Of a stretch of 64,000 bases of DNA, positions 59,901 through 64,000 are shown piece by piece. Position 1 is the first letter of the stretch, and each line of letters begins with the position of its first letter. Source of the stretch: Escherichia coli. Its GTDB lineage: Bacteria > Pseudomonadota > Gammaproteobacteria > Enterobacterales > Enterobacteriaceae. Made by a program: the position numbers. The stretch lies in NCBI RefSeq assembly GCF_045037415.1, contig NZ_CP173438.1; one strand, written 5' to 3'.

Positions 59901-62900
59901 GATATATTCACCGCCCTGTCTGATTAACCTTTGATTTTGGCTATTAATTTTCCGTATCTGGCATCTTCATCTGCCATAAATGTCGTCATCTCTTTGCCAT
60001 ACAGCGGGTAAACTTCGAAACCCTGTTTGGTAGCGAATTCTTGTAATTTCCCCTGCGCAAACACTGCCTGCATAGCGGCAGTTAATTTTTGTGAGACCTC
60101 TTCAGGAGTACCCGCCGGAACCACTAAGGCATTCCATGTCGCCAAATGATATTTATAGCCAGTTGCTTGTTGGAATACTGGAAGATCTTTATAAAGCCCT
60201 GCTGATTTTTCTGCCATGGTCGCTAAATTACGCACCATTTTGGCATCGACCATACTTTTCGCTTCGCCTGGTGATGACGTTGTAAAATCTATACCACCGG
60301 AAACCAGTTCCATCAGTGCAGAACTGGAACCTTCAGAAGGCACCCAGGTCACGGCAGAAGGCGGAAGCCCCATACTGTCGAGCATACCTATCAAGTTCAG
60401 ATGCCAGCCGGAATTTAACCCGCTACCCGATGCTTTTAACTTACCTGGATTCGCCTTGATGTAGTCGGTCATCTGGACGATATTTTCGAACTGCGAATTT
60501 GCTGCGACTTGCACGCCTCCCAGATTCACTGCCAGCCGTGTAATTGGCGTGTAGTTCTGATACGTTAACGCCGTCATCCCCTGATGGTGCATCATGGTGA
60601 TTTCTACCGTCGCAATTCCCAGGGTATAGCCATCCGCTTTAGCTTTCGCAATGGCATCATGGCCAACCACCCCAGCACCTCCCGTGCGATTCACCACGTT
60701 GACATTCACTTTCAACTCTTTTTGCAGCCCTTCTGCCACCAGGCGTGCAACCGTATCGGTATTTCCTCCCGCGCCCCAGGGGACAATGATTTGGATTGGT
60801 TTTTCTGGCCATGCAGCCAGCGCGGAACCTGAAACCAGCAGTGAAGCAACGGCACAACTCATCAGGGTTCGTTTCATATTTGTAGACTCCTGTCTTAATT
60901 ATTTTTTAATAACAGCAAGTGCTGTCGGATATTAATATTTGAGTTGTTGACGCTGGAAATCTGCGGCATCAGCAATTTGTTTTAGCACCACCTCCAGCCC
61001 CCAATATTTTTTCAGCACATCGTCAGCCGTTACCCGGCAATGAACACAGTCAAATGTTCCTCGCTGCTGATGAAATATTTTGGCATTTTTCGGATAGCCA
61101 ATATTTTCACTGACGGCACTCAGCGATAAAAACCAGGCGAGTTGTTTTGCCTCTTCAGGGTGTTGTTTTCCTTCAAGCCAAAGCCAGTGATACAAGTCAG
61201 GATGAAAGTTGGCAAAGACGCCACAAAAACCTTTCGAACCTGCAAGCATCGCCTCCCAGGCAATGGCAGCATTAGCATTAACAATCGTCATTGGCGTGTG
61301 CTGAGTTAATTGCACCCGTCGCGTCACTGTAGGTAGATCACAACTGACGTCTTTTAAGATTTGAAAACGCCCGCTTTGTGCGCAGTAAAGCAGTTCCTCA
61401 TCGGTTAATAAGCGGCGATACGGGGCCGGGCATTCATACAGACCCAGCGCCATACTTTCGGGTAATGACATCAATAGCGCATCAAGCGTACGGAGGAATA
61501 CCGTGGTACCTTCGTTATGTGGATCAAGATGATTCGTCACTAACACCAGCGCATCAATGCCCGTTGCCGCCATAGCATTGAGCTCCTGAATTTGCTGTTC
61601 CAGATCATCAGAAATATGCCCGGACGCAATAACCGGTACTCGTTGTTGGCTATATTCAACCACAAAGCTCGCCAGCTCCACGCGCTCTTCTAAAGTTAAA
61701 TACTGCATTTCACTGGACTGACACACGGCAAATAACGCGTCGGCACCGTTTTCGATATACCAGTCAATTAGCCGTTTAAGACCCAGGTAATCAATTTTAT
61801 TATCCGCCGTAAAAGGCGTTAGCATTACCGGAATAATCCCTTCAATTGTTTTCATATTTCATCCTTCGTTCAGTGAAACATCAGAAAGTCTGAATGGCAA
61901 CATTCTGCTGCTGAATTCTGGCATCCACCAGAGAGATATCAGGCATATTGGCTGCCCCTTCTTTTTCTACTGCCAGCGAAGCGAAAGCGCTGGCATACCA
62001 GGCTGCTTTAACAAGTGATTCTCCCTTCGCCAGTGCGGCGGCGAGCGCGCCATTAAACGCATCACCCGCACCTGTTGTATCTACAGCGACTGCCGAAAAT
62101 GCCGGAATATGCGCACATTGTTGCCCGTCATAAATTAATGCACCTCGTTTTCCCATCGTAATAATTACTGAACATTGCCCGGCATTATAAATATGCTTCG
62201 CAGCCTTCACAGCATCAGAAATATTGTCAATTACCATACCTGACATCGCCGATGCTTCGGTTTCATTTGGCGTCACAATATCAACAAAAGGTAATAATGT
62301 GGCGACATCACTGGACCACGGTGCAGGATTTAAAATCGTTGTCACCTGCATTTTTTGAGCACATTTTAATGCCAGTTGAGTAGCGGCAAGATTATTTTCC
62401 ATCTGTACAATGAATACATCGGACTCGGCTATAAAGTGAGAAAGTTGAATAATATCGTTATCACTTAATTCATGATTTGCCCCTGGAGACATAGCAATCA
62501 TGTTTTCACCTTCATCATTTACATAAATGACCGCACAACCGGTGGTAGATAGTTCAGACTCATAAAAAGTAAATGAACCAATACCAATGGACTCAATATG
62601 ATTGCGGGCAAAATGATTAAACTGATCGCGACCAATCTTACAGGCGAAGTGTATTTGCGCACCTGCCCGATGAGCGGCTAGTGCCTGATTCGCGCCTTTA
62701 CCCCCCGGCCCCATGGTAGTTTCCCTGGCCACTAACGTTTCGCCTTCATTCGGGAAGCGATACACTTTCGCCACAATATCGACGTTAAATGATCCTAACA
62801 CACAAACTTTACCTACCATTCGGCGTCCTTTATCATCAAGCGAGGTTAAATAGCCAATACCCTGCTGTTGTTGCTTGATAAGCAAACTCATATCGACATA

Positions 62901-64000
62901 CTCTTGTTGCGAAAGCGCATTTTGCATTAAATGTTTTTTCAATGAGACGCCTCCATGATGACGACTCACTACACCACGCTTTTGCAACCACGCTAAATCT
63001 GTCCGAATCGTCTCTTTGGTAACAGAAAAATAGTTAGCTAAATCGCTAACACTGCACTCATCCTTGTTGCGAAGTAACCGGACAATATATTCACGACGGG
63101 TATCCCGATACATAAGTCTTCCTTTTTGATTTTATTATCACTAAAAAAGAAATTGTTATCGGGATTTTTATCAAGAAAAAAACAGGCAAGCAAAAACAAA
63201 CAAAAATATTATTCAGGCGAAACGATTCACCTAAAGATAATTAATATTTAGCTTACAAATAAAATAAAATTAATTATCCGTAACATATATAAATAACGTC
63301 AGGTAACGAAAGTAAGAGACTCCCCCTTCTTTCTTATTATTCACATCCAGCCCTAAACTCGCTCGGGCTGGCCCCGGTGCATTTTTTAAATACTCGCGAG
63401 AAATAGAGTTGATCGTCAAAACCGACATTGCGACCGACTGTGGCGATAGGCATCCGGGTGGTGCTCAAAAGCAGCTTCGCCTGACTGATGCGCTGGTCCT
63501 CGCGCCAGCTTAATACGCTAATCCCTAACTGCTGGCGGAACAAATGCGACAGACGCGACGGCGACAGGCAGACATGCTGTGCGACGCTGGCGATATCAAA
63601 ATTACTGTCTGCCAGGTGATCGCTGATGTACTGACAAGCCTCGCGTACCCGATTATCCATCGGCGGATGGAGCGACTCGTTAATCGCTTCCATGCGCCGC
63701 AGTAACAATTGCTCAAGCAGATTTATCGCCAGCAATTCCGAATAGCGCCCTTCCCCTTGTCCGGCATTAATGATTTGCCCAAACAGGTCGCTGAAATGCG
63801 GCTGGTGCGCTTCATCCGGGCGAAAGAAACCGGTATTGGCAAATATCGACGGCCAGTTAACCCATTCATGCCAGTAGGCGCGCGGACGAAAGTAAACCCA
63901 CTGGTGATACCATTCGTGAGCCTCCGGATGACGACCGTAGTGATGAATCTCTCCTGGCGGGAACAGCAAAATATCACCCGGTCGGCAGACAAATTCTCGT

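What the first reader, a model, noticed from the sequence alone, without database searches (positions are those of the whole stretch)
61881..63113. Unusual single-polypeptide fusion of a DeoR-type DNA-binding domain to a complete ribokinase-family kinase
Canonical DeoR regulators pair the HTH with a DeoR C-terminal sugar-phosphate-binding domain, and PfkB kinases are normally stand-alone. Here an N-terminal DeoR-like HTH (about aa 1-60) is joined by a ~40-aa linker to a ribokinase-like domain that retains all catalytic motifs (GG, NxxE, DTTGAGDAF). This could be a 'one-component' regulator that senses its substrate by binding or phosphorylating it, a bifunctional enzyme-repressor, or a kinase-fold domain recruited purely as a ligand sensor. 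Being the first gene of the operon fits an autoregulatory role.
Basis: partly seen in the sequence, partly recalled or inferred. Interest (0 to 1): 0.6.

Follow-up and report, generated by a model that had tools for sequence, protein, structure and literature searches.

The report
DeoR-HTH fused to ribokinase: operon regulator
An intact E. coli gene joins a DeoR-type DNA-binding domain to a complete ribokinase; it belongs to a widespread but untested protein family, and it most likely both phosphorylates a ribose-like sugar and switches its own five-gene sugar-acid operon.

Summary
ORF 61881..63113 (-) encodes one 410-aa protein: HTH_DeoR (aa 6-58), a poorly conserved linker (59-100) and a PfkB/ribokinase domain (102-390) with every catalytic and ribose-contact residue of E. 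coli RbsK.

"Unusual" is overstated. The architecture fills about 22 clusters at 50% identity across Gammaproteobacteria. It includes Salmonella SPI-2 orf408/STM1382. K-12 YeiI is another wHTH-PfkB fusion. I found no functional study of any member.

The gene opens a 5.6-kb island between araC and yabI (fusion, DHDPS-family enzyme, TctCBA), present in 571 of 5426 complete E. coli genomes.

New evidence:
- A tandem 10-bp-phased direct repeat (TTYYGYTT) lies 74-110 bp upstream of the gene in 10 of 11 genera or loci. The same pattern hits the agaR promoter region of K-12.
- Close relatives keep all kinase motifs and have no other kinase in the operon. Of the divergent members with degenerate motifs, the two whose operons were read each sit beside a separate kinase.
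- A Shine-Dalgarno-like core plus ATG/GTG is conserved at the domain junction in 9 of 13 loci.

Best reading: a bifunctional ribokinase and sugar-responsive autoregulator. This is inferred from sequence comparison, not shown by experiment. The operon's substrate is unknown.

The parts
61881..63113 (-). Fusion gene, 410 aa (PGAP: WP_000285500.1, 'PfkB family carbohydrate kinase')
   Evidence: ORF; annotation; Pfam domains
62940..63098 (-). HTH_DeoR winged-helix domain, aa 6-58, with recognition helix around VTKETIRTDL (aa 31-40)
   Evidence: Pfam E 1.1e-14. AF2 model shows a1-b1-a2-a3-b2-b3 at pLDDT 88-97. The domain is 44% identical to the E. coli AgaR HTH. R6, I10, L25, T35, I36, R37, D39, L43, G54 and G55 are invariant or nearly so across the family.
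62814..62939 (-). Linker, aa 59-100; flexible and poorly conserved
   Evidence: pLDDT 49-54; 25% mean identity among orthologues
62817..62831 (-). Internal AAAGGA-N6-ATG (Met99) at the domain junction, exactly where stand-alone ribokinases start. It is either a relic of the ancestral rbsK start or a live internal translation start.
   Evidence: Sequence. Met at this position in 121 of 161 fused proteins. SD-like core plus ATG/GTG in 9 of 13 loci against an 8.7% background.
61944..62810 (-). Ribokinase (PfkB) domain, aa 102-390, with a complete catalytic set
   Evidence: Pfam 8.8e-67. TIGR02152 scores 298.8 bits against a cut-off of 299.65. E. coli RbsK 1gqt matches at 3e-54. Foldseek TM 0.91 to 1rka/1rkd. 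Residue table.
63188..63205 (-). Predicted operator: tandem direct half-sites TTTTGTTT-gt-TTTTGCTT, 10-bp phasing, at -92 to -75 from the ATG
   Evidence: the same pattern hits the agaR promoter region of K-12
63114..63336 (-). AT-rich control region between the araC stop and the fusion gene. It contains a terminator-like hairpin (63212..63235) and a conserved GTGATAATAAAA element (about 63123..63134). The promoter is not assigned.
60932..61855 (-). DHDPS/NAL-family enzyme (class I pyruvate aldolase-like). It follows the fusion gene in every locus of this subgroup.
   Evidence: The Schiff-base Lys and the Tyr align with DapA (the roles of these residues are from established knowledge).
57941..60877 (-). 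TctC (59924..60877), TctB (59438..59911 as the longest ORF; PGAP nt) and TctA (57941..59428): a tripartite tricarboxylate-type transporter
   Evidence: Pfam families of the orthologues
57766..63332 (.). Island of 5567 bp that replaces 106 bp of the K-12 araC-yabI junction. Its GC content is lower (0.38-0.50) than the flanks (0.54-0.61).

Best explanation
The gene encodes a bifunctional one-component protein. Its C-terminal domain is a working ribokinase-type kinase acting on D-ribose or a very close pentofuranose. Its N-terminal DeoR-type winged helix binds a tandem, 10-bp-phased direct repeat (TTYYGYTT x2-3) upstream of its own gene. Through this it controls the operon: fusion, DHDPS-family aldolase, TctCBA transporter. 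Most likely it acts as a repressor that leaves the DNA when the kinase domain binds its sugar, and perhaps nucleotide, and closes its lid. The kinase dimer would hold two HTHs on flexible 40-residue tethers, which suits head-to-tail half-sites. Shown here: the architecture, intact motifs, fold, family spread, gene neighbourhood and conserved upstream repeat. Inferred: DNA binding by this HTH, repression rather than activation, the identity of the sugar, and coupling of lid closure to DNA release. The pathway is probably uptake of an acidic sugar, aldol cleavage to pyruvate plus an aldose, then phosphorylation of that aldose by the fused kinase. The substrate is unknown.
For: (1) One ORF with two confident domains.
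(2) Kinase integrity. Aligned to E. coli RbsK with an offset of +96, the residues N14, D16, G41, G42, K43, N46, A98, I100, I110, E143, N187, E190, T223, G225, G228, D249, G254, D255 and F257 are all identical; the only changes are I112M, I251T, A252G and R288K. The same holds in 31 close relatives down to 48% identity. TIGR02152 scores 0.85 bit below its equivalog cut-off. Foldseek gives TM 0.91 to RbsK. The functional roles of these residues are recalled from the RbsK structure papers, not tested here.
(3) No other kinase and no other regulator lies in the island or in orthologous modules.
(4) Contrast cases. Members with decayed NxxE/GAGD motifs sit beside a separate kinase: P0131 with Dak1/Dak2, and P0191 with a 303-aa PfkB.
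(5) The HTH is under constraint: 51% identity against 25% for the linker, with the DeoR hallmark T-I-R-x-D-L nearly invariant.
(6) Operator. An unbiased 8-mer count puts TTTTTGTT in 9 of 11, TTTTGTTT in 8 of 11 and TTCCGTTT in 5 of 11 upstream regions, while the null maximum is 5. Tandem half-sites 10 bp apart occur in 10 of 11 regions against 0.0015 expected. There is one hit per locus, always on the gene's strand and 74-110 bp before the ATG, and none in 83 unrelated loci. There is one hit in the 64-kb window.
(7) The pattern also hits once in the K-12 agaR-kbaZ region, 21 bp before agaR. AgaR is a canonical DeoR-family repressor whose HTH is 44% identical to this one.
(8) In Dickeya, Pectobacterium, Rahnella and Acerihabitans a TATGAT -10-like hexamer follows the second half-site by 12 nt, which would place the repeat over the -35 region.
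Against: No experiment of any kind supports this, and no paper on any member's function was found. The operator pattern was derived from the same loci and was relaxed after seeing two more; only the 8-mer count and the agaR hit are free of that circularity. Photobacterium, Salmonella orf408 and P0191 lack the repeat. In E. coli and K. spallanzanii the -10-like hexamer at the equivalent place is poor (CTTGAT/CTTGAG). A better extended -10 (TGATAATAA) lies about 45 bp downstream, which would put the repeat at an activator-like position. The ribokinase equivalog score is just under its cut-off. An aldolase that releases ribose from a natural sugar acid is not known to me, so the pathway logic is incomplete.
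Confidence: 0.6

Rival explanations
1. Sensor-only regulator. The ribokinase domain binds the sugar as an inducer but catalysis is irrelevant or lost in vivo, as in ROK-family repressors. Phosphorylation is done by the chromosomal RbsK or another kinase.
For: Several family members have lost NxxE or GAGD residues yet keep the HTH and the sugar-site Asp/Lys. So the fold can serve as a sensor alone. Two of these sit beside separate kinases.
Against: This protein and 31 relatives keep every catalytic, Mg/phosphate and anion-hole residue across about 50% divergence. That is hard to explain without selection for catalysis. The operon encodes no other kinase.
Confidence: 0.15
2. Kinase only. The HTH is an evolutionary leftover, and the conserved upstream repeat is bound by another DeoR-family protein such as AgaR.
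For: The repeat matches the half-site found in the agaR promoter region of K-12. NCBI names most orthologues simply 'ribokinase'.
Against: The HTH is twice as conserved as the linker, with family-wide invariant residues. The repeat travels with the fusion gene into Vibrio, Aeromonas and a Salmonella conjugative element carrying a different operon. No other regulator is co-inherited.
Confidence: 0.07
3. Sugar-dependent activator rather than repressor. The repeat lies upstream of the true promoter, and the protein recruits RNA polymerase when loaded with its sugar.
For: In E. coli and K. spallanzanii the best promoter-like element (TGATAATAA, conserved in both) lies about 45 bp downstream of the repeat. 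The -35 regions are weak everywhere.
Against: From general knowledge, DeoR-family regulators of sugar catabolism are nearly all repressors. In four other genera a TATGAT hexamer places the repeat over the -35 region.
Confidence: 0.15
4. Two proteins from one gene. The full-length protein is the regulator, and a free ribokinase of about 312 aa is made from the internal RBS and Met99 and does most of the catalysis.
For: AAAGGA-N6-ATG sits at the domain junction. Met is present at this position in 121 of 161 fused proteins although the linker is otherwise 25% identical. An SD-like core plus ATG/GTG occurs in 9 of 13 loci against an 8.7% background. Dickeya keeps AAGGA through different codons, and Acerihabitans uses GTG.
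Against: It may be only a relic of the ancestral rbsK start, or a structurally useful Met. Vibrio, Mangrovibacter and Salmonella orf408 lack it. The sequences are not independent. There is no expression data.
Confidence: 0.3

Closest known systems
E. coli ribokinase RbsK (PDB 1RKD/1GQT; PfkB family, EC 2.7.1.15)
   Same: The kinase domain matches RbsK by sequence (phmmer E 3e-54, gapless over about 290 residues; Foldseek reports 37% identity). The fold has TM 0.91. All ribose-contact, NxxE, anion-hole and catalytic Asp residues are shared.
   Different: This protein carries about 100 extra N-terminal residues (wHTH plus linker). It sits in a sugar-acid-type operon rather than rbsDACBKR. Its TIGR02152 score is 0.85 bit under the equivalog cut-off.
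Canonical DeoR-family repressors (AgaR, GlpR, SrlR, DeoR)
   Same: It has an N-terminal HTH_DeoR domain that is 44% identical to AgaR's. The predicted operator of 10-bp-phased TTYCGTTT-like direct repeats resembles the repeats in the agaR promoter region.
   Different: It lacks the DeoRC (PF00455) sugar-phosphate-binding and oligomerisation domain. A complete kinase takes that domain's place.
Salmonella SPI-2 orf408 / STM1382 ('putative regulatory protein, deoR family')
   Same: It has the same two-domain architecture, at 408 aa, and aligns end to end at about 45% identity. The name and locus tag are from PMC3368722.
   Different: Its operon differs (GATase1-like, alpha/beta-hydrolase, amino-acid permease, next to ttrBCA). 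It has no TTYYGYTT tandem upstream and no internal Met/SD. It is also uncharacterised.
E. coli K-12 YeiI (putative sugar kinase)
   Same: It is a wHTH plus PfkB in one polypeptide, next to the nucleoside genes nupX and rihB. Its function is unknown (PMC9061257).
   Different: Its HTH is of the HTH_24 type, not the DeoR type. Its linker is short (about 10 aa). Its kinase is closer to pseudouridine kinase than to ribokinase.
Enzyme-derived one-component regulators: ROK repressors (NagC, Mlc), BirA, NadR, PutA, archaeal RbkR (analogy from general knowledge)
   Same: An HTH is fused to an enzyme or enzyme-like domain that reads a metabolite. BirA, NadR, PutA and RbkR remain catalytically active.
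   Different: The folds are unrelated. To my knowledge and in the searches made here, no PfkB-based example has been characterised.

Membership tests
DeoR family of transcription regulators | N-terminal HTH_DeoR winged helix (PF08220) | tested here: met
   Pfam E 1.1e-14 for aa 6-58; 44% identity to the AgaR HTH; wHTH topology in the AF2 model
DeoR family of transcription regulators | C-terminal DeoRC effector-binding and oligomerisation domain (PF00455) | tested here: not met
   No DeoRC hit; aa 102-390 are PfkB. The protein is therefore a DeoR-type HTH protein, not a canonical DeoR-family member.
DeoR family of transcription regulators | Sequence-specific binding to repeated operator half-sites near its own promoter | tested here: inconclusive
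   A conserved tandem repeat lies upstream and resembles the agaR promoter repeats. Binding itself cannot be tested with these tools.
Ribokinase (PfkB family, EC 2.7.1.15) | PfkB fold with the GG, NxxE and GAGD signatures and the catalytic Asp | tested here: met
Ribokinase (PfkB family, EC 2.7.1.15) | Ribose-contact residues of RbsK (N14, D16, G42, K43, N46, E143, D255 and the hydrophobic lid residues) | tested here: met
   All are identical except I112M. The residue list is recalled from the RbsK structure papers.
Ribokinase (PfkB family, EC 2.7.1.15) | NCBIfam equivalog score cut-off | tested here: not met
   TIGR02152 scores 298.8 against 299.65. NF008353 scores 270.9 against 341. The first is a near miss.
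Ribokinase (PfkB family, EC 2.7.1.15) | ATP-dependent phosphorylation of D-ribose | not testable with these tools
   An enzyme assay is needed.
HTH_DeoR-PfkB fusion family (includes Salmonella orf408) | End-to-end alignment of both domains in one polypeptide of about 400 aa | tested here: met
   About 22 cluster representatives align over query positions 1-400 at 33-62% identity. In a rough NJ tree of the kinase domains, all 51 fused proteins fall on one side of a split together with 6 unfused ones.
Anti-phage defence systems (PADLOC) | Match to a defence protein model | tested here: not met
   Only a weak HTH-only match was found (MkoB, E 2.9e-4).

The most novel reading that the evidence does not exclude
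The protein is a catalytically active ribokinase that is also the operon's DNA-bound switch, so transcription is gated by the enzyme's own substrate-induced lid closure. In addition, the same gene yields a free ribokinase isoform from a conserved internal ribosome-binding site and Met99 at the domain junction. The operon it controls would be an undescribed route for an acidic sugar: aldolase cleavage to pyruvate plus a pentose that the kinase captures. This might be the gene set behind an orphan ulosonic-acid aldolase activity such as Kdo aldolase, EC 4.1.2.23.
Probability: 0.2. Interest if true: 0.65.

Novelty: new variant of a known kind. Interest (0 to 1): 0.42.

Why it matters
Regulators built from enzymes (BirA, NadR, PutA, ROK proteins) are textbook cases of how metabolism talks to transcription. 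A PfkB-based example has not been characterised, although the family is common in enteric and plant-associated bacteria and one member lies in Salmonella SPI-2.

The family seems to hold both intact-kinase and decayed-kinase members. That would make it a natural series for studying how an enzyme turns into a pure sensor.

The predicted operator and the intact active site make the question directly testable with a gel shift and a kinase assay. The operon is a strain-variable metabolic island in E. coli (about 10% of complete genomes) with an unknown substrate.

Tried and rejected
1. Frameshift or two-gene artefact: rejected. The ORF is intact here, in 571 E. coli genomes and in many genera. A single split copy (138 + 292 aa) was seen only in one Pectobacteriaceae genome.

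Only three new fused loci came out of it: L013, L014 and L015.

3. The first, strict operator pattern (TTTTTGTTTNNTTYYGYTT) missed Pectobacterium and the Salmonella ICE paralogue. It was relaxed to TTYYGTTTNNTTYYGYTT after inspection. I therefore added an unbiased 8-mer test.

4. Kdo as substrate (Kdo aldolase gives D-arabinose plus pyruvate, and two recent papers note that no gene is annotated for it in E. coli). This is attractive because of the nan-like gene set in Dickeya and Rahnella (lyase, DUF386, MFS). But the kinase keeps all residues that read the ribo configuration at C2/C3, so D-arabinose is not the obvious ligand. It stays a low-probability idea.

5. Nine literature searches found no functional study of the fusion family or of this island.

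6. Rfam found no RNA element in the island. PADLOC found no defence link.

7. The promoter in E. coli could not be assigned with confidence. The consensus scan gives no more hits than shuffles do.
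Full report
**1. What is there**

The window is E. coli chromosome (thiPQ, yabI, araC). On the minus strand, 61881..63113 is one uninterrupted 410-aa ORF. PGAP annotates it as 'PfkB family carbohydrate kinase', WP_000285500.1.

- Pfam finds HTH_DeoR at aa 6-58 (E 1.1e-14) and PfkB at aa 102-390 (E 8.8e-67).
- NCBIfam's ribokinase equivalog TIGR02152 scores 298.8 bits against a cut-off of 299.65. The N-terminus matches the HTH regions of GlpR, SrlR and AgaR.
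- The AlphaFold2 model has a mean pLDDT of 91.9. It shows a canonical winged helix (aa 1-58), a low-confidence linker (aa 60-95, pLDDT about 50) and a confident kinase domain.
- Foldseek's best matches are E. coli RbsK structures (TM 0.91, 37% identity). Every listed match covers about 300 columns, the length of the kinase domain alone.
- No solved structure matches the N-terminal part by sequence either.

**2. The kinase half looks fully functional**

The phmmer alignment to RbsK is gapless over about 290 residues, with an offset of +96. The residues that I recall from the RbsK structure papers as contacting ribose, Mg/phosphate, the anion hole and the monovalent cation are identical: N14, D16, G41, G42, K43, N46, A98, I100, I110, E143, N187, E190, T223, G225, G228, D249, G254, D255 and F257. 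The only differences are I112M, I251T, A252G and R288K. The same signature is kept in 31 close relatives and in the stand-alone ribokinases used for comparison.

**3. Context**

The gene is the first of five co-directional genes with short gaps: fusion, DHDPS/NAL-family enzyme, TctC, TctB and TctA.

- The cluster is a 5567-bp, lower-GC island (57766..63332). It replaces 106 bp of the K-12 araC-yabI junction and shortens AraC to 281 aa.
- It is complete in 571 of 5426 complete E. coli genomes. It sits at the same site in Klebsiella spallanzanii.
- In other genera the pair fusion + DHDPS-family enzyme is constant, but the transporter varies. It is TctCBA in Vibrio and Photobacterium, and DUF386 + MFS in Dickeya, Pectobacterium, Rahnella and Aeromonas. 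The second set resembles a sialic-acid (nan) module.
- None of these modules has another regulator or another kinase.

**4. How unusual is the fusion?**

Not very.

- The 120 best word-index hits all carry PF08220 + PF00294 and, apart from one truncated 332-aa variant, are 398-418 aa long.
- In the exhaustive search of 50%-identity representatives, about 22 of the best 150 align end to end, down to 33% identity.
- One cluster of 3138 member sequences is the Salmonella gene next to ttrBCA. By length and position this is SPI-2 orf408. The name orf408/STM1382, 'putative regulatory protein, deoR family', comes from PMC3368722.
- E. coli K-12 YeiI is HTH_24 + PfkB. A 2022 paper calls it uncharacterised.
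- A rough NJ tree of the kinase domains puts all 51 fused proteins on one side of a split together with 6 unfused ones. This suggests one or a few fusion events.
- I found no functional study of any member.

**5. Evidence that the HTH is used**

- Across orthologues the HTH is 51% identical, the linker 25% and the kinase 62%. The DeoR hallmark residues around T-I-R-x-D-L are nearly invariant family-wide.
- The upstream regions do not otherwise align between genera (only the E. coli and K. spallanzanii regions do), yet they share a tandem direct repeat of TTYYGYTT with 10-bp phasing. Examples: E. coli TTTTGTTTgtTTTTGCTT at 63188..63205; Pectobacterium TTCCGTTTacTTCCGTTT; and three copies in Vibrio and in a Salmonella conjugative-element paralogue whose operon is nucleoside-related.
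- The pattern occurs once per locus, always on the gene's strand and 74-110 bp before the ATG. It occurs in none of 83 unrelated loci and once in the 64-kb window.
- Because the pattern was derived from these loci, I also ran an unbiased exact-8-mer count. TTTTTGTT occurs in 9 of 11 regions, TTTTGTTT in 8 of 11 and TTCCGTTT in 5 of 11. No 8-mer reached more than 5 regions in 300 dinucleotide shuffles.
- As an outside check, the pattern hits exactly once in the K-12 agaR-kbaZ region, 21 bp before agaR. AgaR is a canonical DeoR-family repressor whose HTH is 44% identical to this one. From memory, AgaR operators are TTTCGTTT-type repeats; I did not verify that in a paper.

**6. Enzyme, sensor or both?**

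The family itself gives the contrast. Seven divergent representatives have lost parts of the NxxE, GAGD or nucleotide-loop motifs while keeping the sugar-site Asp and Lys: P0123, P0125, P0131, P0133, P0139, P0171 and P0191.

- P0131 sits with TctCBA, a Dak1/Dak2 kinase and a DHDPS-family enzyme.
- P0191 sits with a sugar permease and a separate 303-aa PfkB kinase.

So decayed members look like pure sensors with catalysis handed to another gene. The window protein and its close relatives keep everything and have no partner kinase. This favours a bifunctional enzyme-regulator here. The sample of contexts is small, however: two decayed members with a partner kinase, and one (P0139) with only transporters.

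**7. Repressor or activator?**

- In Dickeya, Pectobacterium, Rahnella and Acerihabitans a TATGAT hexamer follows the second half-site by 12 nt. The repeat would then cover about -42 to -25, which is classic occlusion.
- In E. coli and K. spallanzanii the equivalent hexamer is poor, and a conserved TGATAATAA lies about 45 bp further down.

I favour repression, also by family precedent, but this step is inferred.

**8. An extra observation**

Exactly at the domain junction, where stand-alone ribokinases begin, the E. coli gene reads AAAGGA-CGCCGA-ATG (Met99; 62817..62831).

- An SD-like core plus ATG or GTG is present in 9 of 13 loci against an 8.7% background. The binomial P is about 1e-7, though the loci are not independent.
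- Dickeya keeps AAGGA through different codons, and Acerihabitans has GTG.

This is either the fossil of the ancestral rbsK start or a live internal start that yields a free kinase.

**9. What the operon degrades**

This is unresolved. The DHDPS-family enzyme keeps the residues that align with the Schiff-base Lys and the Tyr of DapA (their roles are from established knowledge). It is probably a pyruvate aldolase. The transporters suggest a carboxylated sugar.

A scheme of aldolase first, then kinase on the released aldose, fits the gene sets, including the Dak variant. Kdo was considered as the substrate. However, the kinase's ribo-type sugar site does not favour D-arabinose.

**10. Verdict**

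This is a real, intact fusion and a member of a widespread, catalogued but uncharacterised family. It is most likely a ribokinase that also autoregulates its operon through an AgaR-like direct-repeat operator. Interest is moderate: the architecture is not rare, but the mechanism is untested, it is now sharply testable, and the family may document how an enzyme becomes a sensor.

Noticed in passing
window 62817..62831 (-): An in-frame AAAGGA-N6-ATG (Met99) lies at the HTH/kinase junction, where stand-alone ribokinases start. It is conserved at the nucleotide level in 9 of 13 loci. It may be an internal translation start giving a free kinase.
   Followed up: partly
window 63333..63337 and araC 3' end; K-12 locus L097 1238..1343: The island junction lies inside the 3' end of araC. 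AraC is 281 aa here and in K. spallanzanii, against 292 aa in K-12. The K-12 form may be the derived (deletion) state.
   Followed up: partly
L009 8001..9227 (Salmonella enterica): The gene at the position of Salmonella SPI-2 orf408/STM1382, next to ttrBCA, is a family member at about 45% identity. It heads a different operon (GATase1-like, alpha/beta-hydrolase, amino-acid permease). It has no TTYYGYTT tandem upstream.
   Followed up: partly
L011 2929..9662; L012 533..3702: Family members with decayed NxxE/GAGD motifs sit next to separate kinases (Dak1/Dak2, or a 303-aa PfkB). They look like pseudokinase sensors.
   Followed up: partly
L095 5890..9685 (Salmonella conjugative element): A 48%-identical paralogue with three GTTCCGTTTT repeats upstream heads a nucleoside-type operon (NupC-family transporter, GATase1-like, cytidine deaminase). 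This points to ribose as the common ligand of the family.
   Followed up: no
L096 2701..3789 (E. coli K-12 yeiI): YeiI is an HTH_24 + PfkB fusion next to nupX and rihB. It is another uncharacterised wHTH-kinase in E. coli.
   Followed up: partly
L098 1687..1704 (K-12 agaR promoter region): The operator pattern derived for the fusion gene matches the agaR upstream repeats exactly. Cross-talk between AgaR and the fusion protein is conceivable in strains that carry the island.
   Followed up: no
E. coli hits H1-H4; protein P0008; P0289/P0290: Some strains carry an IS1 within the island. A 332-aa truncated variant of the protein stands for 126 member sequences. One Pectobacteriaceae genome has the gene split into 138-aa and 292-aa ORFs. 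These look like occasional decay of the locus.
   Followed up: no
window 63212..63235 (-): A terminator-like hairpin followed by a T-run lies between the araC stop and the predicted operator. It is probably the araC terminator.
   Followed up: no
window 51515..51741, 46609..46757, 53498..53597, 25020..25109, 2835..2948, 19305..19374, 18826..18901: Rfam matches elsewhere in the window: SgrS, the leucine leader, the TPP riboswitch upstream of the thiamine ABC transporter genes (thiP, thiQ), PssrA, tp2, STnc40 and naRNA4. All are expected for this chromosomal region.
   Followed up: no
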